DNA of 64,000 bases from Escherichia phage 348Ecol098PP. The translations under genes and the position numbers were made by a program. Within the stretch, counting starts at the first letter, position 1. Each line of letters starts with the position of its first letter. The DNA is taken from the sequence record OR062947.1. One strand, 5' to 3'. The notes beneath the pieces are model-generated. The model did no database searches and had not been told where the DNA came from. It worked only from the letters and a program-made list of their open reading frames with translations. Positions 4,382-29,227 of this stretch are shown here, piece by piece.

Positions 4382-6189
4382 AGAAAGATGTTTTAAATTT
4401 TATTTCAAATAAAGATAAAGAATTAAATACCGAAAACGCCAACAAAGATTCTCGTGTCTTTCCAACAAAAAGAGATTTAATGGCCGGTATTGTTTCTAAA
4501 CATATCGCTTGTCGTATTCTTCCAAGTCATATTGTAAATGCCCATAATGTTGGATTAATTCATTTTCATGATTTAGATTACAGTATATCATTGCCTTTTA
4601 CTAATTGCTGTTTAGTAGATTTAAAAGGAATGCTTGAGAATGGATTTAAATTAGGCAATGCTCAAATTGAAACGCCTAAATCGATTGGTGTTGCTACTGC
4701 AATTATGGCACAAATTACTGCACAAGTTGCTTCTCACCAGTATGGCGGAACTACATTTGCGAATGTAGATAAAGTACTTTCTCCTTATGTTAAACGCACA
4801 TATGCAAAACATATTGAGGATGCAGAAAAATGGCAAATCGCTGATGCGTTGAATTATGCTCAATCTAAAACAGAAAAAGATGTCTATGACGCATTTCAAG
4901 CTTATGAGTATGAAGTAAATACTCTCTTTAGTTCAAACGGACAAACGCCTTTTGTAACAATTACATTTGGTACGGGAACTGACTGGACTGAACGAATGAT
5001 TCAGAAAGCAATTTTGAAAAATCGTATTAAAGGTCTTGGTCGTGATGGGATAACTCCTATTTTCCCTAAGCTTGTTATGTTCGTTGAAGAAGGTGTTAAT
5101 CTTTATAAAGATGATCCGAACTATGATATTAAACAGCTTGCTCTAGAGTGCGCAAGCAAAAGAATGTATCCTGACATTATTTCGGTTAAGAATAATAAAG
5201 CTATTATCGGTTCTTCAGTTCCTGTTTCTCCAATGGGCTGCCGTAGTTTCTTGAGTGTATGGAAAGATTCGACTGGCAATGAAATTCTTGATGGACGTAA
5301 TAATCTTGGTGTTGTAACACTGAATCTTCCTCGTATCGCATTAGATTCTTATATTGGAACCCAGTTCAATGAACAGAAATTTGTTGAATTATTCAATGAA
5401 CGAATGGATTTATGTTTTGAAGCATTGATGTGCAGAATTAGTTCCTTAAAAGGAGTTAAAGCGACTGTTGCTCCTATTCTTTACCAAGAAGGTGCATTCG
5501 GGGTTCGTCTTAAACCTGATGACGATATAATTGAGTTATTTAAAAACGGTAGAAGTTCAGTGTCTTTGGGATACATTGGTATTCACGAATTGAATATTCT
5601 TGTCGGTCGTGATATTGGACAAGAAATTTTAACTAAAATGAATGCTCATCTTAAACAGTGGACTGAAAGAACCGGATTTGCTTTTAGTTTATATTCTACT
5701 CCTGCTGAAAACCTTTGTTATCGCTTCTGTAAACTTGATACAGAAAAATATGGAAGCGTAAAAGATGTTACCGATAAAGGTTGGTACACTAACAGTTTCC
5801 ACGTTTCAGTAGAAGAAAATATTACTCCGTTTGAAAAGATTTCTCGTGAAGCGCCGTATCATTTCATTGCGACAGGCGGTCACATTTCTTATGTTGAACT
5901 TCCAGATATGAAAAACAATTTAAAGGGACTTGAGGCTGTCTGGGATTATGCTGCACAACATTTAGATTATTTTGGTGTTAATATGCCAGTAGATAAATGT
6001 TTTACATGCGGAAGTACCCATGAAATGACTCCTACTGAAAACGGATTTGTTTGTTCAGTTTGCGGAGAAACTGATCCTAAAAAGATGAACACCATAAGAA
6101 GAACATGCGGTTATTTGGGAAATCCGAACGAACGCGGATTTAATCTCGGTAAAAATAAAGAAATCATGCATAGGGTTAAACACCAATGA
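4372..6189 (+). CDS. nrdD: anaerobic ribonucleoside-triphosphate reductase NrdD (uninterrupted, no intron)
   Basis: 605 aa continuous ORF; very high similarity to T4 NrdD recalled from memory; C-terminal glycyl-radical region RRTCGYLG. Confidence 0.95.
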   Translation: MSLEKDVLNFISNKDKELNTENANKDSRVFPTKRDLMAGIVSKHIACRILPSHIVNAHNVGLIHFHDLDYSISLPFTNCCLVDLKGMLENGFKLGNAQIETPKSIGVATAIMAQITAQVASHQYGGTTFANVDKVLSPYVKRTYAKHIEDAEKWQIADALNYAQSKTEKDVYDAFQAYEYEVNTLFSSNGQTPFVTITFGTGTDWTERMIQKAILKNRIKGLGRDGITPIFPKLVMFVEEGVNLYKDDPNYDIKQLALECASKRMYPDIISVKNNKAIIGSSVPVSPMGCRSFLSVWKDSTGNEILDGRNNLGVVTLNLPRIALDSYIGTQFNEQKFVELFNERMDLCFEALMCRISSLKGVKATVAPILYQEGAFGVRLKPDDDIIELFKNGRSSVSLGYIGIHELNILVGRDIGQEILTKMNAHLKQWTERTGFAFSLYSTPAENLCYRFCKLDTEKYGSVKDVTDKGWYTNSFHVSVEENITPFEKISREAPYHFIATGGHISYVELPDMKNNLKGLEAVWDYAAQHLDYFGVNMPVDKCFTCGSTHEMTPTENGFVCSVCGETDPKKMNTIRRTCGYLGNPNERGFNLGKNKEIMHRVKHQ

Positions 6190-6656
6190 ATTATGATAGA
6201 TTTTATCCTTGCGATTTTGTGAATGGCCCTGGTTGCAGGGTCGTTCTTTTCGTTACAGGTTGTTTGCATAAATGCGAAGGGTGTTATAATAAATCAACAT
6301 GGAATGCTAGAAATGGTATTCCATTCACCGGAGAGACACTAGAACAATTAATTGAATGTTTGAATAATGATTATATAGAAGGATTGACTATAACCGGAGG
6401 TGACCCTCTCTATCCTGACAACCGAGATGTTGTTCATTGCATCGTTCAAACAGTAAAAAATCTTTATCCCAATAAAAGCATTTGGTTGTGGACAGGATAT
6501 AAGTTTGAAGATATTAAACAACTAGAAATGCTTAAATATGTTGATGTTATTATTGATGGGAAGTATGAGAAAAATCTTCCGACTAAAAAGCTGTGGCGAG
6601 GATCAGATAATCAGCGACTTTGGTCAAATACCGATGGGGTGTGGAAACATGATTAA
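6186..6656 (+). CDS. nrdG: anaerobic RNR activating protein NrdG (radical SAM)
   Basis: 156 aa; Cys cluster CLHKCEGC; ATGA coupling to nrdD. Confidence 0.9.
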   Translation: MNYDRFYPCDFVNGPGCRVVLFVTGCLHKCEGCYNKSTWNARNGIPFTGETLEQLIECLNNDYIEGLTITGGDPLYPDNRDVVHCIVQTVKNLYPNKSIWLWTGYKFEDIKQLEMLKYVDVIIDGKYEKNLPTKKLWRGSDNQRLWSNTDGVWKHD

Positions 6657-6770
6657 ATTGAATTACATTATGGATACTATAAATGATATGATTTTTCGTT
6701 TTGGCCCAGAATTTTATTCGCAGTATAGTTTGGTGTTTATCAATGTTTGGTTAATCAATTAAGGGTAAAT

Positions 6771-6986
6771 ATGTATAAATTTCGTAAAGGTTTAGCTGAT
6801 TTTCTTACAACTGTAACGTTCTTTTTGTTTATGGCAGTTGGAGCTATTTTTCTTATTCCTTTTACTGTTGTATTTTTCGTGATTAGTTTAATTTCTCCGG
6901 AAAAGGGATTATCCTCCAGCGAATTCAATGAACGTTTGGACAAAATTACTAATAAACTGAATTCTGTTCTTGATAAAAAGGCTTAA
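6771..6986 (+). CDS. small membrane protein
   Basis: ATG 6771 with AAGGG RBS; hydrophobic stretch FLTTVTFFLFMAVGAIFLIPFTVVFFVISLI. Confidence 0.55.
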   Translation: MYKFRKGLADFLTTVTFFLFMAVGAIFLIPFTVVFFVISLISPEKGLSSSEFNERLDKITNKLNSVLDKKA

Positions 6987-6988
6987 TT

Positions 6989-7306
6989 ATGATTAGTTTT
7001 GAGCGGTATGTGGTAGAGAGTTGGAAAGGTTTTGATATGTTCGGTAATGACTATTATTTCTATGAATGTAGTCTAAATCCTAGTTTTTGGGCTGGACGTG
7101 AACGAGATTTCGAAGAAATTAATGCTCGTGCCGAATTGTTAGGTGAACTGCCTACGGTTTATTTTACCTTTGATGAATCTGGATTTGTTATCCAGGTTTA
7201 TTTTCCTGAAGAAAACTCCGGTGAGGATTCTGTTAATCCTCCTTATTGGGCTTACCAAGGAATTATTTCTCGTGGAACAAAACTCGAACTTAAAGAACAA
7301 GATTGA
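6989..7306 (+). CDS. hypothetical protein
   Basis: ORF track; RBS AAAAGG upstream. Confidence 0.55.
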   Translation: MISFERYVVESWKGFDMFGNDYYFYECSLNPSFWAGRERDFEEINARAELLGELPTVYFTFDESGFVIQVYFPEENSGEDSVNPPYWAYQGIISRGTKLELKEQD

Positions 7307-7595
7307 AATTTATGGCATCCCTGAAGAAGTAGGACGTTGTCCGGGATGTTATACTGTTACAAAACTTTTAAAGGAGCTCAATGCTCCTTATACATTTTAT
7401 AAAGTCCTCACTAATAATGGTAAGATTGAATATGACCGTCCTTTAATCGTATCTCTTGCTAAACGTGCAGGATTCACTTCACTTAATATTCGTTATCCTG
7501 TCATATTTTTAAATGATAAGAAACAAAAGAATATTGCAGAGTTTAAAAAGTCCTTGATTTCATTAGGATATGACTCTGATATCATAGAAGATTGA
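7272..7595 (+). CDS. nrdH: glutaredoxin-like protein (CPGC active site); start codon uncertain, no in-frame ATG (GTG 7272 proposed)
   Basis: IEIYGIPEEVGRCPGCYTVTKLL redox motif; ORF-track N-terminal extension (7143-) overlaps the upstream ORF and looks non-coding. Confidence 0.5.
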   Translation: MEQNSNLKNKIEIYGIPEEVGRCPGCYTVTKLLKELNAPYTFYKVLTNNGKIEYDRPLIVSLAKRAGFTSLNIRYPVIFLNDKKQKNIAEFKKSLISLGYDSDIIED

Positions 7596-7615
7596 CCAGG
7601 CGGCGCCTGGTCAAT
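7591..7615 (+). terminator. strong perfect hairpin (11-bp stem) after glutaredoxin gene; no T-run
   Basis: ATTGACCAGGCG-G-CGCCTGGTCAAT palindrome. Confidence 0.4.
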
Positions 7616-7704
7616 CTTCATCTCATTTCTAATATAATCCATTGGAATCTTCACTTCACTATCTCCTTGTGCCCCTCTCAAATCGAAAATATTTTCATAA
7701 AACA

Positions 7705-7732
7705 GTTTACATCCTCAATAGATGTGTTAAGA
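7705..7732 (+). promoter_or_regulatory. T4 early-type promoter (GTTTAC -35, TAAGAT -10)
   Basis: GTTTAC at 7705-7710, 16-nt spacer, TAAGAT; 30 nt upstream of ORF 7762. Confidence 0.4.
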
Positions 7733-7761
7733 TTAAACCATCTACTATAGAGGAAAATAAA

Positions 7762-8010
7762 ATGATTAGTTTAGATTCAAAGAAAGTTGTTCTAACTCTT
7801 AATGTAAATAACGAACGTCTGATATTCATTACCATTTCCGATTTGAACGTTGAAATTGCTAATGGCGTCCGTACTTATCAAACGTCTAAAACACATTGGG
7901 ACTATATCCCAATGTTGACGCTTACTCAGCGTTTAGAATCAATCGGTCTTAAAGACCTTTCAGTAAGTGAAGTGAATTTTATCAAACGCATTGTATCAAT
8001 CAACCTCTGA
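7762..8010 (+). CDS. hypothetical protein
   Basis: ATG 7762 with AGAGGAAAA RBS; in frame with ORF-track 7642..8010. Confidence 0.55.
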   Translation: MISLDSKKVVLTLNVNNERLIFITISDLNVEIANGVRTYQTSKTHWDYIPMLTLTQRLESIGLKDLSVSEVNFIKRIVSINL

Positions 8011-18656: not shown

Positions 18657-21368
18657 ATGAAAGAATTTTACTTAACGGTTGAACAGATTGGTGATTCAAT
18701 TTTTGAACGTTACATCGATTCTAACGGCCGTGAACGTACTCGTGAAGTAGAATATAAACCATCACTGTTTGCTCATTGTCCAGAAAGTCAGGCTACGAAA
18801 TATTTCGATATCTACGGTAAGCCGTGTACTCGTAAGTTGTTCGCTAATATGCGTGATGCCTCCCAATGGATTAAACGCATGGAAGATATCGGTCTTGAAG
18901 CACTTGGCATGGACGATTTCAAATTGGCGTATTTGTCTGACACTTATAACTATGAAATCAAATACGACCATACAAAAATTCGTGTGGCTAACTTCGACAT
19001 CGAAGTAACATCTCCCGATGGGTTCCCTGAGCCATCACAAGCAAAACATCCGATTGATGCTATCACCCATTATGACTCAATTGACGACAGGTTCTACGTA
19101 TTTGATCTATTGAATTCTCCATATGGTAATGTAGAAGAATGGTCTATTGAAATCGCTGCTAAGCTTCAAGAACAAGGCGGTGATGAAGTTCCATCCGAAA
19201 TTATCGATAAAATCATTTATATGCCGTTCGATAACGAAAAAGAATTGTTGATGGAATATCTCAACTTCTGGCAACAGAAAACTCCTGTCATTTTGACTGG
19301 ATGGAACGTTGAGTCATTTGATATTCCATATGTGTATAACCGAATCAAGAATATTTTTGGCGAATCTACTGCGAAACGTTTATCACCACATCGTAAAACT
19401 CGTGTTAAAGTTATCGAAAACATGTATGGTTCTCGTGAAATCATTACATTGTTCGGTATCTCTGTTCTTGATTACATTGACCTTTACAAAAAATTCTCTT
19501 TTACCAATCAACCATCGTATTCTCTGGATTACATTTCAGAATTTGAATTGAACGTTGGTAAACTGAAATATGACGGCCCTATTTCTAAGCTTCGTGAAAG
19601 CAATCACCAACGATATATTTCTTATAACATTATCGACGTGTATCGTGTATTGCAAATTGATGCTAAGCGTCAGTTCATCAACTTGAGTTTGGACATGGGT
19701 TATTATGCTAAAATTCAGATTCAATCTGTGTTTAGCCCAATTAAAACATGGGATGCTATTATTTTTAATAGCCTTAAAGAGCAGAACAAGGTGATTCCAC
19801 AAGGTCGTTCTCACCCGGTTCAACCTTATCCTGGCGCTTTTGTTAAGGAACCTATTCCAAATCGATACAAATATGTAATGAGTTTCGACCTTACATCTCT
19901 GTATCCAAGTATTATTCGCCAAGTGAATATTAGCCCGGAAACAATAGCAGGAACGTTTAAAGTAGCTCCATTGCATGATTATATTAACGCAATCGCTGAA
20001 CGTCCTTCAGATGTGTACAGTTGTTCTCCTAACGGCATGATGTATTATAAAGACCGTGATGGTGTAGTTCCAACTGAAATCACTAAAGTCTTTAATCAAC
20101 GTAAAGAACATAAAGGTTATATGCTTGCGGCTCAACGTAATGGCGAAATAATTAAAGAGGCATTGCATAATCCTAATCTTTCTGTTGATGAACCATTAGA
20201 TGTTGATTATCGTTTCGACTTCAGTGATGAGATTAAAGAAAAGATTAAAAAGTTGTCTGCTAAATCTCTTAATGAAATGTTGTTTAGAGCTCAACGTACT
20301 GAAGTTGCAGGTATGACTGCCCAAATTAACCGTAAATTGCTTATCAACTCACTTTATGGTGCACTTGGAAACGTTTGGTTCCGTTATTATGATTTGCGTA
20401 ATGCTACTGCAATCACAACATTTGGTCAAATGGCTTTACAGTGGATTGAACGTAAAGTTAATGAATATCTGAATGAAGTTTGTGGTACAGAAGGTGAAGC
20501 TTTCGTTCTTTATGGTGATACAGACTCTATTTACGTATCTGCTGATAAAATTATCGATAAGGTTGGTGAATCTAAATTCCGTGATACCAACCATTGGGTA
20601 GACTTCTTAGATAAGTTTGCACGTGAACGTATGGAACCAGCTATTGATAGAGGTTTCCGTGAAATGTGTGAATACATGAACAATAAACAACACTTAATGT
20701 TCATGGACCGAGAAGCTATCGCTGGTCCTCCACTTGGTTCTAAAGGTATTGGTGGATTCTGGACTGGTAAGAAACGTTATGCATTAAACGTGTGGGATAT
20801 GGAAGGTACTCGTTACGCTGAGCCTAAACTCAAAATCATGGGTCTAGAGACTCAGAAATCTTCGACTCCTAAAGCAGTACAGAAAGCTCTTAAAGAATGT
20901 ATTCGTCGTATGCTTCAAGAAGGTGAAGAATCATTACAAGAATATTTTAAAGAGTTTGAAAAAGAATTCCGTCAATTGAATTATATTAGCATCGCGTCTG
21001 TATCTTCTGCGAATAACATTGCTAAATATGATGTTGGTGGATTCCCTGGCCCCAAATGCCCATTCCATATTCGTGGAATTCTGACGTATAACCGGGCTAT
21101 CAAAGGTAATATCGATGCACCGCAAGTTGTAGAAGGTGAAAAAGTATATGTTCTGCCTTTACGTGAAGGAAACCCATTCGGTGATAAATGTATCGCATGG
21201 CCTTCTGGTACTGAAATCACAGATTTAATTAAAGACGACGTACTTCATTGGATGGACTACACTGTTCTCCTTGAGAAGACATTTATTAAACCACTTGAAG
21301 GATTCACATCAGCAGCGAAACTCGATTACGAGAAGAAAGCATCTCTGTTCGATATGTTCGATTTTTGA
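18657..21368 (+). CDS. 43: DNA polymerase gp43 (family B), RB69-type 903 aa
   Basis: MKEFYLTVEQIGDSIFERYIDSNGRERTREVEYKPSLFAHCPESQ... exo and pol motifs (FDIEV, YGDTDS). Confidence 0.97.
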   Translation: MKEFYLTVEQIGDSIFERYIDSNGRERTREVEYKPSLFAHCPESQATKYFDIYGKPCTRKLFANMRDASQWIKRMEDIGLEALGMDDFKLAYLSDTYNYEIKYDHTKIRVANFDIEVTSPDGFPEPSQAKHPIDAITHYDSIDDRFYVFDLLNSPYGNVEEWSIEIAAKLQEQGGDEVPSEIIDKIIYMPFDNEKELLMEYLNFWQQKTPVILTGWNVESFDIPYVYNRIKNIFGESTAKRLSPHRKTRVKVIENMYGSREIITLFGISVLDYIDLYKKFSFTNQPSYSLDYISEFELNVGKLKYDGPISKLRESNHQRYISYNIIDVYRVLQIDAKRQFINLSLDMGYYAKIQIQSVFSPIKTWDAIIFNSLKEQNKVIPQGRSHPVQPYPGAFVKEPIPNRYKYVMSFDLTSLYPSIIRQVNISPETIAGTFKVAPLHDYINAIAERPSDVYSCSPNGMMYYKDRDGVVPTEITKVFNQRKEHKGYMLAAQRNGEIIKEALHNPNLSVDEPLDVDYRFDFSDEIKEKIKKLSAKSLNEMLFRAQRTEVAGMTAQINRKLLINSLYGALGNVWFRYYDLRNATAITTFGQMALQWIERKVNEYLNEVCGTEGEAFVLYGDTDSIYVSADKIIDKVGESKFRDTNHWVDFLDKFARERMEPAIDRGFREMCEYMNNKQHLMFMDREAIAGPPLGSKGIGGFWTGKKRYALNVWDMEGTRYAEPKLKIMGLETQKSSTPKAVQKALKECIRRMLQEGEESLQEYFKEFEKEFRQLNYISIASVSSANNIAKYDVGGFPGPKCPFHIRGILTYNRAIKGNIDAPQVVEGEKVYVLPLREGNPFGDKCIAWPSGTEITDLIKDDVLHWMDYTVLLEKTFIKPLEGFTSAAKLDYEKKASLFDMFDF

Positions 21369-21408
21369 TATAATGACATGGACGGTAAACTAATTAAACG
21401 AGAGAAAT

Positions 21409-22044
21409 ATGAAAACTACTCCTATTACTATCGCTATTGACGCAATCATAAAACAATCTTCTTCTTTGGCCGCTATGGCCAAAGTAATTAGTCAAAACCC
21501 TGCTCGTTATAATGCTATTCTAGAAACTCTTCGACGTCCGGGACTTAGTAATTATGAAAGTCGTGTAATTATTACAGGTGTTGGTAAGAATGCTAATATT
21601 GCAACTAAAGCTTCTGAGACATTTGCTTCACTCGGTATCCCGAGTATGTACTTGAACACTGGGCATTATTCTCACGGCGATGCAGGATTCATTGCGCCTA
21701 ATGATGTGTTGATTCATATTAGTCGTTCTGGTAAAACTGAAGAAATGATAGGCGTGGCTAAGCATCTTAAAATGATTCGACCGAACGTCAAACAGATTCT
21801 GTTGCATTGTAACCCAGACATTCCACAAGAAAATGAAGCCCTTTTTGATTACTCTTTCTGTACAGGCATCGCAGTAGAGGTTGATGAGAATTCTCTGGCT
21901 CCGACTATGTCCACTACATTGTTGTTAGCGCTTATCGATACGTTTGCTATCAACCTTTCGTCTGAACGTGGATTTACCTCTAATGATTTCCTTAAGTTCC
22001 ATCCAGGCGGTGCACTAGGTGCCATGTTACGAGGCGAGCAATGA
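21409..22044 (+). CDS. SIS-domain sugar-phosphate isomerase, KdsD/KpsF/GutQ-type arabinose-5-phosphate isomerase-like (no CBS domains)
   Basis: GVGKNANIATKASETFASLGIPSMYLNTGHYSHGD, ISRSGKTEE, LAPTMSTTLLLAL, RGFTSNDFLKFHPGGALG match the API SIS-domain pattern from memory. Confidence 0.75.
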   Translation: MKTTPITIAIDAIIKQSSSLAAMAKVISQNPARYNAILETLRRPGLSNYESRVIITGVGKNANIATKASETFASLGIPSMYLNTGHYSHGDAGFIAPNDVLIHISRSGKTEEMIGVAKHLKMIRPNVKQILLHCNPDIPQENEALFDYSFCTGIAVEVDENSLAPTMSTTLLLALIDTFAINLSSERGFTSNDFLKFHPGGALGAMLRGEQ

Positions 22045-22184
22045 AAGCAATAACAATAGGACTTTTACTATTGATGCTTGTCATGACTATCTACTGGAGC
22101 TTAACGGCTCCAGTAATGATTCCAACACTTGTAATTGGATGGATTATGATTGGACTACAAGCAAAGTATGAATGCTTTAACTAG
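22041..22184 (+). CDS. small hydrophobic protein (47 aa, single/double TM)
   Basis: manual translation; ATGA overlap with isomerase stop. Confidence 0.4.
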   Translation: MKAITIGLLLLMLVMTIYWSLTAPVMIPTLVIGWIMIGLQAKYECFN

Positions 22185-22225
22185 AATAGTGTACAATACT
22201 CCTACTTACCAATGAGGACCACAAC

Positions 22226-23911
22226 ATGAAAAAAGCTGTTATTCTTGGTGCTGGACTAGCAACTCGTTTGTATCCAATAACGCATCATATTCCTAAGGTG
22301 CTTGTTAACTATAAACAAGACACTATTCTGAGCAATTTGTATACAATTTATTCTGACCTTGGCGCAGATGAAATTATTGTAGTAGTTCATTCAAAATTTG
22401 CTGGAACTGTTCGAGCTTATTGTGAGCAAGAAGGGTTCAATGTGACTATTCGTACAGTTGATGAAGCGTATGGTTCTGCTTATGCTCTTGCTAAATTGCA
22501 CAAAGATTTAGACGGCCATAATGTAATTGTTAACTGGTGTGATATTATTCCTGATTTTGGTTCATGGTCTTGGAATGTTAACGCAATCTATGTTAAGGGT
22601 GACGAATGTCGATATAATTTCGACGGTGAAAATATCACTAACGTAGGTTCAACAGGTGGTAATGTTGTAGGAATTTACCAGTTCAAAGACTGGGAATTCT
22701 ATATGGGTTCTACCGATGAGGAAATTCATGAATACTGCAAAGGACGTGATTTCGTAGAATTCCTTTACGGCAGTGCATTCAATAAATCAGAGCTTATGAA
22801 TCTAATTGATTTAGGTGATATGCCTAAACTTGAAAAGGCTCATGAAGTTCGTGAACTTAATCGTAGTTTTAATGCAGTTGAAATTGGTGAAGAAACTGTA
22901 ACTAAATTCGCATTAACCGAACAAGGCCGAGCTCTTCAGAAAGATGAGATTTCATGGTATCTTAAAGTGAAATCAGATTCAGTTCCTCAGTTAGTTTCTG
23001 TTAATGAAAATAACTTTGAAATGGAACGCATTAAAGGTAAGCCGGCATTTGAATATATTAAATCCAAATCGAGTCTCGCTCGTCCACAAATTGTTGATGC
23101 AATTTTAGATGCACTGAAATTCAGCACAGACACTTATTTTGTAAGTCCTGAAACTGTTCGTCGTGATTTCACTAAAGAATTCTATACGAAAGTTATTGAT
23201 CGTTGTGAAAGTATTCAACCATTGATTGATTCATTTGGTAAAATAACACATGTGAACTACACTAAGATTGGGCGTCTGAAGCCAATGTTGAAACAAGCTT
23301 TAGAACACCTTATTCGTTATCATAACCGTTCTCAGGGACAGTACTCTGTTATTCATGGTGACCCGAACTTCAGTAATACTATGATTACTGATAATGGCGA
23401 AGTCAAGTTTATCGACCCTCGTGGATATTTTGGTGAAACCAAGATTTACGGGCCAAAATTGTATGATGAAGCTAAAGTGCTTTACGCTGTTTCAGGATAT
23501 GATGAATTCAACGCTAATCCGACCTGGGGGCAGTTTACTATTGATGAAACAACTTGTAATGTGACTATTAACATCAATCCATTAGTTTACAAATATGGAA
23601 AGATGAGTTCGTTTAACGAGTATCATCATTTGGCGGTGGCAATTATCTGGATTGCATTAGGTGGTTATTTCAAGAATAATCCACTTAAAGCGGTAGCCGC
23701 ATATTATAAAGGTATGGAACTTCTGACTAAGCAATTACGTAACATGGGCCGTGTACTTCAGGACGGCACCATTAGTTATGACGTAGCAGAACCTGTAACG
23801 GCTACTCTGATTACAAAAAATCCTGGTAAATGGGTACTAACTGATAAAGAAACTGGTGTTTCCTATCGTCCAATCGGTGGCGATATCACTCATCAATGGG
23901 AACGAATCTAA
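22226..23911 (+). CDS. bifunctional sugar-1-phosphate nucleotidyltransferase / sugar anomeric kinase (APH/choline-kinase fold) fusion
   Basis: N-terminal AVILGAGLATRLYPIT..PK nucleotidyltransferase signature; C-terminal IHGDPNFSN and FIDPRG kinase motifs. Confidence 0.75.
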   Translation: MKKAVILGAGLATRLYPITHHIPKVLVNYKQDTILSNLYTIYSDLGADEIIVVVHSKFAGTVRAYCEQEGFNVTIRTVDEAYGSAYALAKLHKDLDGHNVIVNWCDIIPDFGSWSWNVNAIYVKGDECRYNFDGENITNVGSTGGNVVGIYQFKDWEFYMGSTDEEIHEYCKGRDFVEFLYGSAFNKSELMNLIDLGDMPKLEKAHEVRELNRSFNAVEIGEETVTKFALTEQGRALQKDEISWYLKVKSDSVPQLVSVNENNFEMERIKGKPAFEYIKSKSSLARPQIVDAILDALKFSTDTYFVSPETVRRDFTKEFYTKVIDRCESIQPLIDSFGKITHVNYTKIGRLKPMLKQALEHLIRYHNRSQGQYSVIHGDPNFSNTMITDNGEVKFIDPRGYFGETKIYGPKLYDEAKVLYAVSGYDEFNANPTWGQFTIDETTCNVTININPLVYKYGKMSSFNEYHHLAVAIIWIALGGYFKNNPLKAVAAYYKGMELLTKQLRNMGRVLQDGTISYDVAEPVTATLITKNPGKWVLTDKETGVSYRPIGGDITHQWERI

Positions 23912-24297
23912 TGCACCGTGTAGAAAACATGCTTAATCTTTGTTTTGATGTCGATGATTGTATAACAGAGTGGAATAACAATCGTGATTACGTGAACTTC
24001 AAACCAGACGTCGAAATGGTGTCTGCCATTAATGCCCTATATGATGCAGGGCATACCATAACGCTTTACACTGCTCGCGGTATGAAGTCAGTAGGTCCTG
24101 GTCGTATAGCAATTGACATTCTCCCAAGTCTGATTCAGAACTTGGCAAACATTGGCTTGAAGTACCATAATTTGCTAACACATAAACCAGTATATGATTG
24201 GATTATCGACGACAAAGCTATGCGTCCTGACGAATTCAAAGCTCTTATGAATAAAGGCGAATTCGAAACATTTAAATCATATAAACCGAATCTATAA
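23911..24297 (+). CDS. HAD-superfamily phosphatase
   Basis: motif I FDVDDCIT near N-terminus; TAATG overlap with upstream stop; ORF-track frame. Confidence 0.65.
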   Translation: MHRVENMLNLCFDVDDCITEWNNNRDYVNFKPDVEMVSAINALYDAGHTITLYTARGMKSVGPGRIAIDILPSLIQNLANIGLKYHNLLTHKPVYDWIIDDKAMRPDEFKALMNKGEFETFKSYKPNL

Positions 24298-24351
24298 TAA
24301 TTTAAGTAAGACCTGCAAAAACCATCGCAACAATTAACGCGAGATGCAAAA

Positions 24352-25512
24352 ATGAATACCTTTAAAATCGGAACGAATTTTGATTTAGCTCTTCTTGATA
24401 AAATCGTAGAGCTCAATAAAACTTATCCTAATAGCTTGATAAACGAAGTATACGGCTCTACAAGAGAAATGGCTTTTGTAGCAGCCAGACCTGATTTTAG
24501 GCTTCCTGACGTTGACAAAAAGATGTTAGAAGATTACGTTAAACGTTGTAACGAATTAGGTATTTGCTTTAACTATACACTCAACACGATAAATCCTGGT
24601 TCAAAAAGAGAACTAGTTGAGTGGAAGAAGAAAGCTATTCAGGATTATGTTCAGTATCTTTGGTCAATAGGCGTATGGCGTATTACTATCGCTAACCCTG
24701 TTGTTATGGAAATTGTTCGTGAAGTCAATAAAGACATTGAGATTGAAGTTTCAACAATTCTACATGTCGATGCTGTAACTCAAATCAAATACTTGCATGA
24801 CCAATATAATATCAAAAAGGTCTGCTGTGGAATTCATAAGAACCGTTCAGTTTCTTTCCTGAAGCGTGCAGCAGAGTTTTGCAATAAGAACAATATAATA
24901 TTTGAAGTTCTCGTAAATGAATTCTGCTCTAATGCTGGTAAAGGGTATACAACACATTGTAGTTATCGTGACTCTTGCTATATTTTCCATAGCACCGATG
25001 TTACAGTAGATGATGCCAAATCCTTAAATGGATATCCTATGCAGCACTGTATTAAAGCTCGTGATACAGACCCATTTAACTGGTTGAGAACTCGTTTTGT
25101 TCGTCCTCAAGATTTGAAACTTTATAATGATATTGGTATCACTCAATTCAAAGTTTCAGGACGTACAGGTAGCACCGACTACATTTTGAAAGTTCTTGAA
25201 GCTTATGCTTCTGAAAAGTTTGAAGGTAATTTGTTGGAATTGTGGAAGCCTTTAGAGACTATTTTCACTCTTGAAAATGAGACCGAGTTTTCACATACGG
25301 TAAATATTGAAACCTCTTTGTTAGATGGCTTTTTAGAAAAAAGGTGGTTCAAACATCCAGATTTCGATTGTGCTAATGAAATCTGCGGGACGACGTGTAC
25401 ATATTGTGAAAGATATTATAAACGTCAGTTATCTAAAAATGGGTTAGCAGAAAACTCTATATCTATTATTGATATAACTAACTCTGATGACGCTTTGAGG
25501 TACCCGGAATGA
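24352..25512 (+). CDS. peptidase-U32-family (TIM barrel, Cys-rich) protein
   Basis: NEVYGSTREMAFVAARPDF, ICFNYTLNTINPG, EFCSNAGKGYTTHCSYRDSC resemble U32 proteins as recalled from memory. Confidence 0.5.
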   Translation: MNTFKIGTNFDLALLDKIVELNKTYPNSLINEVYGSTREMAFVAARPDFRLPDVDKKMLEDYVKRCNELGICFNYTLNTINPGSKRELVEWKKKAIQDYVQYLWSIGVWRITIANPVVMEIVREVNKDIEIEVSTILHVDAVTQIKYLHDQYNIKKVCCGIHKNRSVSFLKRAAEFCNKNNIIFEVLVNEFCSNAGKGYTTHCSYRDSCYIFHSTDVTVDDAKSLNGYPMQHCIKARDTDPFNWLRTRFVRPQDLKLYNDIGITQFKVSGRTGSTDYILKVLEAYASEKFEGNLLELWKPLETIFTLENETEFSHTVNIETSLLDGFLEKRWFKHPDFDCANEICGTTCTYCERYYKRQLSKNGLAENSISIIDITNSDDALRYPE

Positions 25513-25790
25513 TTTCTAGAAAAACTTTTAACCACCAACTTAATGAAGAGATTTTGACTATGAAAATTAACAGCAACGAACAAATTCTTAAAAAGGCCCT
25601 TATGGGCCTGTTTGAAACTAAAGCGGCTAAAGTGATTAAAGAAACCTGTTCAACTAGAATACTACGCTGATGCATTTCTTCATAGTGTTCTTGGAAGTAT
25701 CGATGCTGAAGCTTTACGTTATATCAACATCGCTAAGAAATTCAAATAAGCTTTATGAATTGAGTATATAATAACTGTATTGAGGTAAAC

Positions 25791-26507
25791 ATGGGAAAAC
25801 ATAACACAATGAAATATATTAAAGCCGCAGATTTTCAATCCGCATTTAAAGCTGTCAATCGTGAAATTTTAGAAAATCCACAGTTCGTTACTGACTCTCG
25901 TATTGGACGTTGTAATGAAATTGGGTCTATGACAGTAGTTGTTGATACCCCTTCATCATTCAAAATGACCGACCCACGTATTAATCGCATCTCTTATGAA
26001 TATGCTGAAGATTTCTGGAAATTTATGATTTCTGGTGGTACTGATGCAGAAGAAGCATTTAAGGCATATCCTAACGTTGCTAAATTTATTTCTAAACCTA
26101 AATCAGATGCTTTGCCTGCAAACTTCAACACTTTCTACGGTCCACGAATTGCGGCCCAGTTACCAGCTCTTCTCAAAGAACTTAAAGAGAAACCTAATTC
26201 ACGAAGAGTTGTGTTTCAAATTCTTGAAAGTTCAGATCAGGCTTTGCTTGATTCGGATGAAACACTTGAATATCCATGTACTGACTCAGTGACTTATTAT
26301 ATTCGTGATGGTAAGCTTTATACCCACTGTCATATGCGTTCTCAGAACTGTGCTGTTGTTATGCAGTTGGATTTTTATCTCCAAGGAAAATTACTTCATT
26401 ATATCGCTAACGAATGTGGTGTAGAAGTTGGTGATTATACTCATACCATGGTAAGTGCCCATGTGTTTGAACGTGATTTTGATTATGTTAAAGGATTCCT
26501 TGACTAA
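25791..26507 (+). CDS. 42: dCMP hydroxymethylase (thymidylate-synthase fold)
   Basis: PNSRRVVFQI and YPCTDSVTYYIRDGKLYTHCHMRSQN align with the SRR and catalytic Cys regions of T4 gp42. Confidence 0.8.
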   Translation: MGKHNTMKYIKAADFQSAFKAVNREILENPQFVTDSRIGRCNEIGSMTVVVDTPSSFKMTDPRINRISYEYAEDFWKFMISGGTDAEEAFKAYPNVAKFISKPKSDALPANFNTFYGPRIAAQLPALLKELKEKPNSRRVVFQILESSDQALLDSDETLEYPCTDSVTYYIRDGKLYTHCHMRSQNCAVVMQLDFYLQGKLLHYIANECGVEVGDYTHTMVSAHVFERDFDYVKGFLD

Positions 26508-27406
26508 TGGCTATTTTCCGCGTACCTATCTTGAGTATGCGGTCTTATGAAACTGGACAGTATGCTATCCTTAAGGATGGCAACTTCCAACTTCATTTGC
26601 ACCGTGCTAATCCGGGTGATGTGATTACATATCCACGTAATGCATCTGATATTAAAGAATGTGAACGTCTTTTCCCAGAATTTAAGTTTGTTCCATTATG
26701 GTATAAAGATAACGCATATAACACTCGTAAATATTTCTGGTCTGAAAATGAATTTGTGGTTGATTCATTAATTGATTATTATGATTGTGATTTTCTAATC
26801 ACAGATATCACTGGATATGACGGTACTTTTGACGTAGAATTCAATTTCAATATCACTGCAGACCCTAATAAACCACGTTTTTATATTGACGAATTCTTAA
26901 AAACCGATATGTTGTCGGTTAATCGTTCACTTCAAACTACTGTGTTGAATAAACGTCAAAAGGAAGTGCTGGTTAACGCTGGTGCCGATGGTAATAAGAT
27001 TATCGTAACCCAGAAAGTTATACGTCCTTCCATCATGCAGCGTCTTGTAGGTGATTTGGCTCCTATTCATCTAGATGGTATTTTTCATCCATTTCGAATT
27101 AGTGATCCGTGCTATCGTTTTGAACAAGTGGTTGAATGCGCGATTCAATTAGGTCAACCGCTTTATATAACCGATCCAAATAATAGCTTCGACAGAAATA
27201 AGTATCCTGAAGAAGCGTTGATTCGAATTTTTAAACCAACTAAAACTGAGTACTATCAAATTCTTAAAGGACGACCGAAGATTCAATATTTCGAAAATCC
27301 TGAAGAAGTATTTCATCCAGGTCTTGGTGAGTTCATCTACTTTAACGCTTTAATTTCTTCGCCGTATAATATACCTAAATATGAAGATGTCGTAATCGAG
27401 GAATAA
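26507..27406 (+). CDS. hypothetical protein (299 aa) in the syntenic slot of T4 beta-glucosyltransferase; function unknown
   Basis: ORF track; TAATG coupling to gene 42; no recognisable beta-gt similarity. Confidence 0.8.
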   Translation: MAIFRVPILSMRSYETGQYAILKDGNFQLHLHRANPGDVITYPRNASDIKECERLFPEFKFVPLWYKDNAYNTRKYFWSENEFVVDSLIDYYDCDFLITDITGYDGTFDVEFNFNITADPNKPRFYIDEFLKTDMLSVNRSLQTTVLNKRQKEVLVNAGADGNKIIVTQKVIRPSIMQRLVGDLAPIHLDGIFHPFRISDPCYRFEQVVECAIQLGQPLYITDPNNSFDRNKYPEEALIRIFKPTKTEYYQILKGRPKIQYFENPEEVFHPGLGEFIYFNALISSPYNIPKYEDVVIEE

Positions 27407-27407
27407 A

Positions 27408-27956
27408 ATGGCTAAAATTATTTTAGTAGATGGCCCAGATAATGCTGGTAAAACAACTTTCATTAATGACATAATGGAAATTAGTGAAAGATATGTAAAG
27501 ATTGATTTCCCTAAACGAACAGTTGATGGACGTTTCGATGTTAAGTCTCGAAATGAAGTTGGCTGTTTCGAAACGATGTTGAATTATTTAGACCCTACTA
27601 AGATTTATCTGTTAGACCGTGGATATATTAGTAACTGGGTTTATGGACGTATTCGACAAGACGCGGACTCGGTTCTTGACGTTTATGAACAGGATTATGT
27701 TCGTCTTTGCCAAAACCATGATGTGTTCACAATTATTTTAACACGTAACGAAATGACTGAAAGTTTTGAAGACGACCTTATTACTTTGTCTTCATTCGGT
27801 TTTAATACAGTCATTTCACATTTTGAAGAGTTTGCAATTCATAACAAAATCCAAACGTATCAATTACTTAATCATGATGGTGCTAACAAAGTTATAGGAT
27901 TTAATGCAAGCGAACGTAATGATTTGATTACAGAAATCATCAAATGGGCTCGTTAA
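27408..27956 (+). CDS. P-loop kinase (thymidylate/nucleoside-monophosphate kinase-like)
   Basis: Walker A ILVDGPDNAGKTTF; size 182 aa; GAGGAA RBS. Confidence 0.7.
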   Translation: MAKIILVDGPDNAGKTTFINDIMEISERYVKIDFPKRTVDGRFDVKSRNEVGCFETMLNYLDPTKIYLLDRGYISNWVYGRIRQDADSVLDVYEQDYVRLCQNHDVFTIILTRNEMTESFEDDLITLSSFGFNTVISHFEEFAIHNKIQTYQLLNHDGANKVIGFNASERNDLITEIIKWAR

Positions 27957-28054
27957 GAGCCATTTAAAGTTTTAAATGCTGTATAACCCTTAGTATATAA
28001 TCATCTTATCTTTTAAACATGAGTAAAATATAATGATGCCTATGGAAAAATACA

Positions 28055-29227
28055 ATGTCTGATTTAAAATCTCGTCTGATTAAAGCTTCTACTTCTAAAA
28101 TGACTGCAGACTTGACTAAGTCTAAGCTGTTTAATAATCGTGATGAAGTCCCTACTCGTATTCCGATGTTGAATATTGCACTAGGTGGTGCTCTGAATGC
28201 AGGATTGCAATCAGGCTTGACTATTTTTGCTGCACCTTCTAAACATTTTAAAACATTGTTTGGACTGACCATGGTTGCAGCATATATGAAGAAATATAAA
28301 GATGCAATTTGTTTGTTCTATGATTCAGAATTTGGTGCTTCAGAATCTTATTTTCGTTCAATGGGTGTTGATTTAGACCGTGTAGTTCATACTCCGATTC
28401 AATCTGTCGAACAACTTAAAGTTGATATGACTAATCAGCTTGACGCGATTGAACGTGGTGATAAAGTTATTATCTTTATCGATTCAATCGGTAATACTGC
28501 ATCTAAGAAAGAAACCGAAGATGCGTTGAACGAGAAAGTTGTAGGTGATATGTCTCGTGCTAAGGCACTTAAATCTCTGTTCCGCATTGTGACTCCTTAT
28601 CTGACTATTAAAGATATTCCATGTGTTGCAATCAACCATACAGCAATGGAAATCGGCGGACTATATCCTAAAGAGATTATGGGCGGCGGTACAGGTATTC
28701 TTTACTCTGCTAACACTGTATTCTTTATCTCTAAACGTCAGGTTAAAGAAGGTACAGAATTGACCGGTTATGACTTCACGTTGAAAGCAGAAAAATCTCG
28801 CACAGTTAAAGAGAAATCTACTTTCCCGATCACGGTTAATTTTGATGGCGGTATTGACCCATTCAGTGGCTTGTTAGAAATGGCAACTGAAATTGGTTTT
28901 GTAGTTAAGCCTAAAGCCGGGTGGTATGCTCGTGAATTCCTTGACGAAGAAACAGGCGAAATGATTCGTGAAGAAAAATCATGGCGTGCTAAAGCTACTG
29001 ATTGTGTAGAATTTTGGGGGCCGTTGTTTAAACATAAGCCTTTCCGAGATGCAATTGAAACTAAATATAAACTAGGTGCTATCTCTTCTATTAAAGAAGT
29101 TGATGACGCTGTTAACGACCTTATTAATTGCAAAGCAACAACTAAAGTTCCGGTTAAAACTTCTGATGCTCCGTCTGCAGCAGATATAGAAAACGACCTT
29201 GACGAAATGGAAGATTTCGATGAATAA
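28055..29227 (+). CDS. uvsX: recombinase UvsX (RecA-like)
   Basis: 390 aa; N-terminal MSDLKSRLIKASTSK...; RecA fold motifs. Confidence 0.95.
   Translation: MSDLKSRLIKASTSKMTADLTKSKLFNNRDEVPTRIPMLNIALGGALNAGLQSGLTIFAAPSKHFKTLFGLTMVAAYMKKYKDAICLFYDSEFGASESYFRSMGVDLDRVVHTPIQSVEQLKVDMTNQLDAIERGDKVIIFIDSIGNTASKKETEDALNEKVVGDMSRAKALKSLFRIVTPYLTIKDIPCVAINHTAMEIGGLYPKEIMGGGTGILYSANTVFFISKRQVKEGTELTGYDFTLKAEKSRTVKEKSTFPITVNFDGGIDPFSGLLEMATEIGFVVKPKAGWYAREFLDEETGEMIREEKSWRAKATDCVEFWGPLFKHKPFRDAIETKYKLGAISSIKEVDDAVNDLINCKATTKVPVKTSDAPSAADIENDLDEMEDFDE

What the first reader, a model, noticed from the sequence alone, without database searches (positions are those of the whole stretch)
22226..23911. Single-polypeptide fusion of sugar-1-P nucleotidyltransferase and APH/choline-kinase-like anomeric kinase
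The N-terminus carries the G-x-G-x-R-L-x-P-x-T...PK signature of sugar-1-phosphate nucleotidyltransferases (GAGLATRLYPITHHIPK). The C-terminal about 250 aa carry kinase motifs HGDPNFSN and FIDPRG, typical of aminoglycoside/choline/sugar anomeric kinases. This salvage-type architecture (free sugar to sugar-1-P to NDP-sugar in one protein) resembles fucokinase/GDP-fucose pyrophosphorylase or AmgK-MurU logic and is unusual in a phage. The nucleotide used (UDP, CDP, etc.) cannot be read from sequence.
Basis: partly seen in the sequence, partly recalled or inferred. Interest (0 to 1): 0.75.

Follow-up and report, generated by a model that had tools for sequence, protein, structure and literature searches.

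The report
Known phage UDP-arabinose bifunctional enzyme (AfhE)
This gene really does encode a fused sugar kinase and sugar-nucleotide synthase, but it is the already-described enzyme that RB69-like phages use to make UDP-arabinose for decorating the cytosines of their DNA, so it is a correct reading of a known thing.

Summary

It is not new. The window is a Mosigvirus. The protein differs at 4 residues from RB69 ORF53_52c (gp52:53), proposed in 2018 for UDP-arabinose synthesis. It is 97% identical to the syntenic protein of phage HY126. A 2026 NAR paper reports that HY126 protein, AfhE, as a biochemically shown bifunctional D-arabinose-5-phosphate kinase / UDP-D-arabinose pyrophosphorylase.

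The "free-sugar salvage" reading is probably wrong. The reported route is Ru5P to Ara5P (SIS isomerase, 21409-22044), then Araf-1,5-P2 (kinase half), then Araf-1-P (HAD phosphatase, 23911-24297), then UDP-Araf (NTase half). This is ADP-heptose (GmhA/HldE/GmhB) logic built from different folds.

Homologs occur in 373 phage records, so the architecture is not rare in phages. Side observation: 890-955-aa HAD-SIS-NTase-kinase fusions occur on giant-virus-like contigs.

The parts
22226..23911 (+). Complete gene for the bifunctional NTase-kinase (561 aa plus stop). It is the ortholog of RB69 ORF53_52c / gp52:53 and of HY126 AfhE.
   Evidence: ORF found. 97.5% nt identity to RB69 ORF053c+ORF052c and 4 aa differences once the documented extra C in the RB69 record is removed. 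543/562 aa identical to the syntenic HY126 protein XAN60479.1.
22226..22846 (+). N-terminal sugar-1-phosphate nucleotidyltransferase domain (aa 1 to about 207). Signature G8-x-G10-x-x-x-R14-L...P23-K24; acidic residues D106 and D195/D198.
22847..23746 (+). Protein-kinase-like (APH/choline-kinase type) domain (aa about 208-507). K227 (beta3 Lys), E241 (alphaC Glu), Brenner motif H377-G-D379-x4-N384, metal-binding D397 within the family hallmark I-D-P-R-G-Y-F-G.
23747..23908 (+). C-terminal 54-aa extension (aa 508-561), a small beta-rich appendage of unknown role. It is present only in the T4-like phage members of the family.
   Evidence: Modelled with lower confidence (pLDDT 77-87). Occupied in the 23 closest A1 members, all at least 36% identical and of T4-like (Straboviridae) type, and absent from the 20 more distant ones.
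22173..22197 (+). T4-type middle-promoter-like site (MotA box TGCTTTA, 12-nt spacer, TACAAT) 29 nt upstream of the ATG. A GAGG Shine-Dalgarno sequence lies at 22214-22217.
   Evidence: The pattern TGCTTYA-N11-13-TANNNT occurs 13 times in the window against 1.55 expected, and no shuffle out of 100 reached 13. Sequence read. Function is inferred from the T4 MotA consensus (own knowledge).
21409..22044 (+). Upstream partner: SIS-domain D-arabinose-5-phosphate isomerase (RB69 gp55), which supplies Ara5P from ribulose-5-P.
   Evidence: Pfam SIS E 1e-10. NCBIfam KpsF/GutQ E 2e-32 and KdsD E 7e-31. Role as given in PMC13326640.
23911..24297 (+). Downstream partner: small HAD-type phosphatase (RB69 gp51, HY126 AfhF). 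Its ATG overlaps the target's stop codon (TAATG).
   Evidence: 100% identical to HY126 XAN60478.1 and to PDB 9iqw over aa 5-133 of the longer ORF. NCBIfam TIGR01689 capsule biosynthesis phosphatase E 3.8e-13. Role as given in PMC13326640.
25791..27406 (+). Consumers of the pathway in the same cluster: ThyA-like 5-hydroxy-dCMP synthase (25791-26507) and the putative first arabinosyltransferase (26507-27406, RB69 gp46:47).
   Evidence: Pfam Thymidylat_synt E 2.4e-15. 237/238 identical to PDB 9iqc/9ir2. Synteny with RB69 and HY126. The glycosyltransferase role comes from PMC13326640 only; Pfam finds nothing for it.

Best explanation
The gene encodes the Mosigvirus ortholog of AfhE (RB69 ORF53_52c / gp52:53). 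This is a bifunctional enzyme of the phage pathway that makes UDP-D-arabinofuranose, the donor used to arabinosylate 5-hydroxycytosine in phage DNA. The proposed sequence of steps is as follows. (1) The SIS isomerase encoded just upstream converts host ribulose-5-P to D-arabinose-5-P. (2) The C-terminal APH/choline-kinase-like domain uses ATP to phosphorylate the anomeric C1-OH of Ara5P, giving arabinofuranose-1,5-bisphosphate. (3) The small HAD phosphatase encoded immediately downstream, which is translationally coupled, removes the 5-phosphate. (4) The N-terminal RmlA/MurU-type nucleotidyltransferase domain condenses Araf-1-P with UTP to give UDP-Araf plus PPi. (5) The cluster's glycosyltransferases then transfer arabinose to 5-hydroxycytosine. 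Shown here: the ORF, both folds, invariance of the catalytic residues, near-identity to the RB69 and HY126 proteins, and conserved linkage (and in distant homologs fusion) with the SIS and HAD genes. Taken from the literature at second hand: the Ara5P-kinase and UDP-Ara pyrophosphorylase activities of AfhE and the phosphatase activity of AfhF. Inferred: starting from Ara5P locks the sugar in the furanose form found in the DNA, which explains why no mutase is needed.
Against: I could not read the primary biochemical paper (He et al., Nat Chem Biol 2026), so the Ara5P-kinase order rests on a second-hand summary. The same NAR paper's Table 1 still lists the alternative order, phosphatase first and then kinase on free arabinose. 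No activity was measured for this exact protein. The window protein and AfhE differ at 19 positions, clustered in the kinase N-lobe (aa 228-265). Purified TH1_060 showed no NTP:xylose-1-P activity. That result is uninformative for Araf-1-P, but it is not positive evidence either. Nucleotide specificity cannot be derived from the sequence.
Confidence: 0.88

Rival explanations
1. The HAD phosphatase first converts Ara5P to free D-arabinose (or host arabinose is scavenged). The kinase domain then phosphorylates free arabinose at C1, and the NTase domain activates the product directly. The two fused domains would then act consecutively, as in FKP or AmgK-MurU.
For: Table 1 of PMC13326640 still annotates RB69 gp51 as 'dephosphorylates Araf5p to Ara' and the CTD as 'phosphorylates Ara to Araf1p'. 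The closest kinase folds (APH, choline kinase, fructosamine kinase, glucosamine kinase) mostly act on non-phosphorylated substrates. Fusing consecutive steps is the more common pattern.
Against: The text of PMC13326640, citing experiments on HY126 AfhE/AfhF, states that the kinase acts on Araf5P and the phosphatase on Araf-1,5-P2. Free D-arabinose is mainly pyranose, whereas the DNA carries D-Araf and the cluster has no mutase (inference from established sugar chemistry; NMR result). An invariant Arg (R399) directly after the metal-binding Asp, and several other invariant basic residues (R213, R326, K417, K488), fit an anionic substrate. That last point is inference only.
Confidence: 0.08
2. 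A LicC-LicA-like enzyme (cytidylyltransferase plus choline/ethanolamine kinase, as fused in some bacteria) that activates a small alcohol such as choline rather than a sugar.
Confidence: 0.02
3. A DNA glycosyltransferase. The 'GT-A-like' N-terminal domain would transfer the pentose to cytosine itself, as considered for Thanatos TH1_060 and in early CDD annotations of RB69 ORF053c.
For: CDD labelled the N-terminus 'glycosyltransferase family A superfamily'. The Thanatos paper keeps TH1_060 as a glycosyltransferase candidate.
Against: All strong matches are nucleotidyltransferases with the G-x-G-x-R...P-K pyrophosphorylase signature, not glycosyltransferases. TH1_060 transferred nothing to DNA in vitro. 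Dedicated GT-B transferases exist in the cluster, and the homologous DLP3 GTs gp76 and gp77 were shown to use UDP-Araf on RB69 DNA.
Confidence: 0.02

Closest known systems
AfhE of Escherichia phage HY126 (He et al., Nat Chem Biol 2026), which is the same as RB69 ORF53_52c / gp52:53 (Thomas et al. 2018; Lee et al. NAR 2026)
   Same: Same gene. 97% (HY126) and 99.3% (RB69) amino-acid identity, the same length, the same position between the arabinose-5-P isomerase and the HAD phosphatase, and the same two domains.
   Different: 19 substitutions or indels relative to HY126, mostly in aa 228-265 of the kinase N-lobe. Nothing suggests a change of function.
HldE (RfaE) with GmhA and GmhB: the ADP-L-glycero-beta-D-manno-heptose pathway of Gram-negative bacteria. 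Also the GDP-heptose variant GmhA/HddA/GmhB/HddC.
   Same: Same pathway logic (own knowledge of Kneidinger et al. 2001/2002): a SIS isomerase makes an aldose phosphate, an anomeric kinase makes a 1,n-bisphosphate, a HAD phosphatase removes the distal phosphate, and a nucleotidyltransferase activates the sugar-1-P. In HldE the kinase and NTase (steps 2 and 4) are likewise fused while the phosphatase is separate. The best solved-structure hit of the NTase profile is HddC.
   Different: The parts are non-homologous. The HldE kinase is ribokinase/PfkB-type and HddA is GHMP-type, whereas here it is protein-kinase-like. The HldE transferase is cytidylyltransferase-type, whereas here it is RmlA/GlmU-type. 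The domain order is reversed, the sugar is a pentose and the nucleotide is UDP.
AmgK-MurU (MurNAc salvage) and NahK plus GlmU-type enzymes
   Different: They are separate proteins, act on free sugars (true salvage), and their steps are consecutive with no phosphatase in between.
FKP (L-fucokinase/GDP-fucose pyrophosphorylase, Bacteroides and plants) and the trypanosomatid arabinokinase/pyrophosphorylase
   Same: A single polypeptide with an N-terminal NTase and a C-terminal anomeric kinase. The trypanosomatid enzyme even makes an NDP-D-arabinose (own knowledge).
LicC/LicA (and fused LicCA) of the phosphocholine decoration pathway
   Different: The substrate is choline and the nucleotide is CTP. 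There is no SIS or HAD partner and the biological role is unrelated.

Membership tests
Sugar-1-phosphate nucleotidyltransferases (Pfam PF00483, RmlA/GalU/MurU/HddC type) | N-terminal G-x-G-x-R-L-(x)n-P-K pyrophosphorylase signature | tested here: met
   G8AGLATRLYPITHHIPK24. G10, R14 and K24 are invariant in 43 homologs, and the signature aligns to the same motif of HddC.
Sugar-1-phosphate nucleotidyltransferases (Pfam PF00483, RmlA/GalU/MurU/HddC type) | Score above the curated family threshold | tested here: met
   PF00483 scores 37.0 bits against a cut-off of 21.2, E 3.6e-9. Only the first ~100 of 245 profile positions are matched.
Sugar-1-phosphate nucleotidyltransferases (Pfam PF00483, RmlA/GalU/MurU/HddC type) | Rossmann-like alpha/beta/alpha NTase fold with acidic metal ligands | tested here: met
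Sugar-1-phosphate nucleotidyltransferases (Pfam PF00483, RmlA/GalU/MurU/HddC type) | NTP plus sugar-1-P gives NDP-sugar plus PPi | not testable with these tools
   Reported for the HY126 ortholog, with UDP-D-arabinose as product, at second hand.
APH / choline-kinase / fructosamine-kinase (protein-kinase-like) phosphotransferases | Brenner motif H-x-D-x4-N and a downstream metal-binding Asp | tested here: met
   H377-G-D379-P-N-F-S-N384 and D397 in IDPRG. D379, N384 and D397 are invariant, and H377 is conserved in at least 90% of homologs.
APH / choline-kinase / fructosamine-kinase (protein-kinase-like) phosphotransferases | N-lobe ATP-binding Lys and alphaC Glu | tested here: met
   K227 and E241 are invariant and lie in a beta-strand (224-229) and a helix (232-247) of the model. 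The assignment is by position, not by superposition.
APH / choline-kinase / fructosamine-kinase (protein-kinase-like) phosphotransferases | Bilobal kinase fold | tested here: met
APH / choline-kinase / fructosamine-kinase (protein-kinase-like) phosphotransferases | Score above a curated Pfam family threshold | tested here: not met
   APH 14.3 against 23.2, Fructosamin_kin 17.1 against 22.4, EcKL 16.1 against 22. phmmer of the kinase half finds no PDB sequence. 17/43 homologs do hit APH at E up to 0.01, best 6e-10. It is therefore a divergent branch of the superfamily, not a member of a named Pfam family.
AfhE orthologous group (phage Ara5P kinase / UDP-Ara pyrophosphorylase) | Near-identity and collinearity with the characterised HY126 protein | tested here: met
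   543/562 identical over the full length. That XAN60479.1 is AfhE is inferred from its position, size and two-domain description in PMC13326640.
AfhE orthologous group (phage Ara5P kinase / UDP-Ara pyrophosphorylase) | Genomic association with the arabinose-5-P isomerase, the AfhF-type HAD phosphatase and the 5hodCMP synthase | tested here: met
   All are present in the same order. The HAD is 100% identical and the ThyA-like enzyme 99.6% identical to solved structures 9iqw and 9iqc.
AfhE orthologous group (phage Ara5P kinase / UDP-Ara pyrophosphorylase) | ATP-dependent 1-phosphorylation of D-arabinose-5-P | not testable with these tools
   Known only through the summary in PMC13326640. The primary paper is not held.
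FKP-type fucokinase/GDP-fucose pyrophosphorylase | C-terminal GHMP-family kinase domain | tested here: not met
HldE-type bifunctional heptose kinase/adenylyltransferase | Ribokinase-like kinase domain plus cytidylyltransferase-like (HIGH-motif) transferase domain | tested here: not met
   Neither fold was found. The resemblance is in pathway logic only.

The most novel reading that the evidence does not exclude
The NTase-kinase module is not confined to phage DNA modification. Distant homologs (30-35% identity, all catalytic motifs kept) are single 890-955-aa polypeptides with the order HAD - SIS - NTase - kinase, which amounts to the whole ribulose-5-P to NDP-D-arabinofuranose pathway in one protein. 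Two of them lie on contigs with giant-virus-like genes (MutS with HNH, Rpb2, Rpb10, XRN; no ThyA-like gene within 8 kb), and one is in a slime-mould (Ceratiomyxa) transcriptome. If real, giant viruses or their protist hosts make an activated D-arabinofuranose for glycans. I found no paper in the held library that links these proteins to giant viruses. For the window gene itself, the only open items are the role of the T4-like-specific 54-aa C-terminal extension and the absence of a solved structure.
Probability: 0.3. Interest if true: 0.45.

Novelty: already known. Interest (0 to 1): 0.18.

Why it matters
The enzyme supplies the sugar donor for arabinosyl-5-hydroxycytosine. This DNA hypermodification shields RB69-like and many other T4-like phages from restriction enzymes and some CRISPR nucleases, and it creates new targets for type IV systems. 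The window adds no new biology, because the gene, its fusion architecture and, in a 97%-identical ortholog, its two activities are already published. The practical value is in annotation. Most of the 373 phage records still call it 'hypothetical protein', 'GlmU' or 'mannose-1-phosphate guanyltransferase'. The adjacent phosphatase is often called 'phosphoheptose isomerase', and the RB69 reference record still splits the gene because of a sequencing error.

Tried and rejected
(1) phmmer of the kinase half alone against PDB sequences gave zero hits even at E<=10. Only fold comparison and family-wide Pfam scanning show the kinase relationship.

(2) No solved structure of the bifunctional protein exists in the PDB copy, by single sequence or by profile, although its neighbours are solved (9iqw, 9iqc).

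(3) The sigma-70 promoter and terminator scan of 21300-28100 was not above shuffled expectation (22 against 26.4 promoter-like sites, 5 against 3.8 terminator-like sites), so I drew nothing from it. The T4 MotA-box pattern was informative instead.

(4) The primary papers, He et al. 2026 and Mahler et al. 2025, are not held. Searching for 'AfhE' found only the NAR paper.

(6) I tried to read nucleotide specificity from the base-recognition position of RmlA and GlmU. The alignment around D79-A87 is too divergent to trust, so I dropped it.

(7) The FKP-like, HldE-like (as homologs), LicCA-like and DNA-glycosyltransferase readings were rejected for the reasons given under rivals and membership tests.

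Full report
OBSERVATION. An ATG-started ORF of 561 codons plus stop occupies exactly 22226-23911 on the + strand. GAGLATRLYPITHHIPK is aa 8-24, HGDPNFSN is aa 377-384 and FIDPRG is aa 395-400. A GAGG Shine-Dalgarno sequence lies 8 nt before the ATG.

WHAT THE TWO HALVES ARE.
- By sequence, the N-terminus passes the Pfam NTP_transferase threshold (37 bits against 21.2) and hits many NCBIfam sugar-1-P nucleotidyltransferase models below their equivalog cut-offs.
- The kinase half reaches no Pfam threshold (APH 14.3 against 23.2, Fructosamin_kin 17.1 against 22.4) and has no PDB relative detectable by phmmer.
- I aligned 43 homologs reaching 28% identity (A1). Invariant residues are G10, R14, K24, D106, D195, D198 and K201 in the first half, and K227, E241, G378, D379, N384, D397 and R399 in the second. 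'IHGDPNFSN...FIDPRGYFG' is almost unchanged throughout. Seventeen of the 43 members hit Pfam APH on their own, best 6e-10.
- An AlphaFold2 model built on A1 is confident (pLDDT 94.1, pTM 0.90).
- The last 54 residues form a small, less confident appendage (pLDDT 77-87). It is present only in the T4-like phage members.

WHERE IT SITS. The window is a Mosigvirus (RB69-like T-even phage): 98.8% nt identity to phage HX01, and 148 records at 95-99%. The gene lies downstream of DNA polymerase gp43. The local order, established, is:
- SIS arabinose-5-phosphate isomerase (21409-22044; KpsF/GutQ E 2e-32);
- a 47-aa hydrophobic ORF;
- this gene;
- a small HAD phosphatase, whose ATG at 23911 overlaps this gene's stop as TAATG;
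- a U32-peptidase-like protein;
- a ThyA-like protein;
- a putative glycosyltransferase;
- a nucleotide kinase;
- uvsX.

A T4-type middle-promoter-like site (TGCTTTA-N12-TACAAT) lies at 22173-22197. That pattern occurs 13 times in the window against 1.55 expected.

IT IS ALREADY DESCRIBED.
- Thomas et al. 2018 (PMC6024577) showed that RB69 ORF053c and ORF052c are one 561-residue gene, split in GenBank by a spurious C. They expressed it as a band consistent with the predicted 63.9 kDa and proposed it, together with the SIS protein ORF055c, for UDP-arabinose synthesis.
- My alignment reproduces this. The window ORF is 97.5% identical in DNA to that RB69 segment, and the only gap is the extra C. 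The corrected proteins differ at 4 residues.
- Lee et al. 2026 (PMC13326640) showed that the RB69 modification is D-arabinofuranosyl-5-hydroxycytosine (mono- and di-arabinosylated). They modelled gp52:53 as a MurU-like N-terminal domain plus an APH/choline-kinase-like C-terminal domain, which are the same matches I obtained.
- The same paper summarises He et al. 2026 on phage HY126. [quoted passage not shown] AfhF is a Mg-dependent HAD phosphatase that converts Araf-1,5-P2 to Araf-1-P.
- HY126 is in the phage collection (PP658200.1). Its syntenic 562-aa protein is 543/562 identical to the window protein, and its HAD protein is 100% identical.
- The window's HAD and ThyA-like proteins are 100% and 99.6% identical to the solved structures 9iqw and 9iqc/9ir2. 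The bifunctional protein itself has no solved structure.
- The 54%-identical Thanatos homolog TH1_060 is essential for phage growth (PMC12838424).

The fusion and the sugar were read correctly. The 'salvage, free sugar to sugar-1-P' logic is probably wrong. The reported order is Ru5P to Ara5P (SIS), then Araf-1,5-P2 (kinase half), then Araf-1-P (HAD), then UDP-Araf (NTase half). The fused domains therefore perform steps 2 and 4, with a separate enzyme acting in between.

From established knowledge, this is the logic of ADP-heptose synthesis: GmhA, HldE kinase, GmhB, HldE transferase. Here it is built from non-homologous kinase and transferase folds. The NTase profile's best solved relative is HddC, the transferase of the GDP-heptose variant.

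An inference of mine fits this order. Phosphorylating Ara5P at C1 fixes the furanose ring that is found in the DNA, so no pyranose-furanose mutase is required.

I keep about 8% for the salvage order, for two reasons. Table 1 of the NAR paper still lists it, and I could not read the primary data.

INDEPENDENT SUPPORT FOR THE PATHWAY. Gene linkage is conserved well beyond Mosigvirus.
- A 350-kb phage contig with a 35%-identical homolog carries SIS - GT2 - NTase/kinase - HAD - ThyA-like in a row.
- In 890-955-aa homologs the HAD, SIS, NTase and kinase modules are fused into one chain. All motifs are retained in the one examined, P0085.

This Rosetta-stone evidence ties the three phage genes into one pathway. 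It does not settle the order of steps.

HOW COMMON. tblastn finds the protein in 373 of 50,697 phage records. Of these, 363 are near full length, across Escherichia, Acinetobacter, Klebsiella, Vibrio, Serratia, Proteus, Yersinia and other hosts. 'Unusual in a phage' does not hold.

VERDICT. The feature is already known, so interest is low (0.18). The main residual items are annotation clean-up, the unexplained C-terminal extension, the lack of a structure, and the four-domain fusions on giant-virus-like contigs noted in passing.

Noticed in passing
Loci L003 8001-10781 (P0085) and L006 8001-10760 (P0088); also P0089, P0093, P0096, P0108 and P0091: Distant homologs (30-35% identity) are 890-955-aa four-domain fusions, HAD-SIS-NTase-kinase, which is the whole Ru5P to NDP-Ara route in one chain. 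P0085 sits on a 103-kb contig between MutS+HNH, Rpb2, Rpb10, an Atg3-like gene and a protein kinase. P0088 sits near an XRN exonuclease and a GT25. This context is giant-virus-like and has no ThyA-like gene nearby. P0091 comes from a Ceratiomyxa fruticulosa transcriptome. Other variants are NTase-kinase-cupin (P0105, P0111).
   Followed up: partly
window 24352-25512 (+): A U32-peptidase-like protein (Pfam E 6e-11; weak UbiU hit E 5e-4) lies between the HAD phosphatase and the flavin/O2-dependent 5-hydroxy-dCMP synthase. The U32 family includes O2-independent hydroxylases (UbiU/V, RlhA for ho5C in rRNA, TrhP for ho5U in tRNA; own knowledge). It could therefore be an anaerobic route to 5-hydroxycytosine. 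It has a C340-x4-C345-x3-C349-x2-C352 cluster. The NAR 2026 paper calls it only 'sugar or heterocycle reductase' and does not mention U32, RlhA or TrhP.
   Followed up: partly
window 22173-22197 and 12 other sites (for example 3472, 11230, 13923, 15229, 36622, 45711); one lies inside the gene at 23478-23503: The T4 MotA-box middle-promoter pattern TGCTTYA-N11-13-TANNNT occurs 13 times against 1.55 expected, mostly on the + strand just upstream of genes. One copy lies inside the NTase-kinase ORF, about 400 nt before the HAD gene.
   Followed up: partly
window 22041-22184 (+): A 47-aa very hydrophobic ORF (MKAITIGLLLLMLVMTIYWSLTAPVMIPTLVIGWIMIGLQAKYECFN) lies between the isomerase and the NTase-kinase gene. 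Its ATG overlaps the isomerase stop (ATGA). It is also annotated in HX01 and HY126, and RB69 annotates a shorter ORF (RB69ORF054c) at this position. Its function is unknown.
   Followed up: no
window 22907-23020 (aa 228-265 of the protein): Most of the 19 differences between the window protein and HY126 AfhE are packed into aa 228-265 of the kinase N-lobe, including a 1-aa indel, while the rest is nearly identical. This looks like a small recombination patch.
   Followed up: no
window 23896-24297 versus 23911-24297: The mechanical ORF for the HAD phosphatase starts at 23896. The RB69 and HY126 annotations start at the ATG at 23911, and the PDB 9iqw chain aligns from one residue before that Met. 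That ATG overlaps the upstream stop (TAATG), which suggests translational coupling.
   Followed up: yes
L002 (RB69 NC_004928.1) 6095-7781, and many GenBank phage records: The RB69 reference still splits this gene into ORF052c and ORF053c because of an extra C. Orthologs are variously labelled hypothetical, GlmU, mannose-1-phosphate guanyltransferase or bifunctional protein. The HAD phosphatase is labelled 'phosphoheptose isomerase' and the glycosyltransferase 'RNA polymerase binding protein'.
   Followed up: yes
window 23747-23908 (aa 508-561): A 54-aa C-terminal extension with the conserved pattern T..P.KW.L.D.E....Y......W is present only in the T4-like phage members of the family and absent from jumbo-phage, giant-virus-like and other homologs. 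Its role is unknown.
   Followed up: partly
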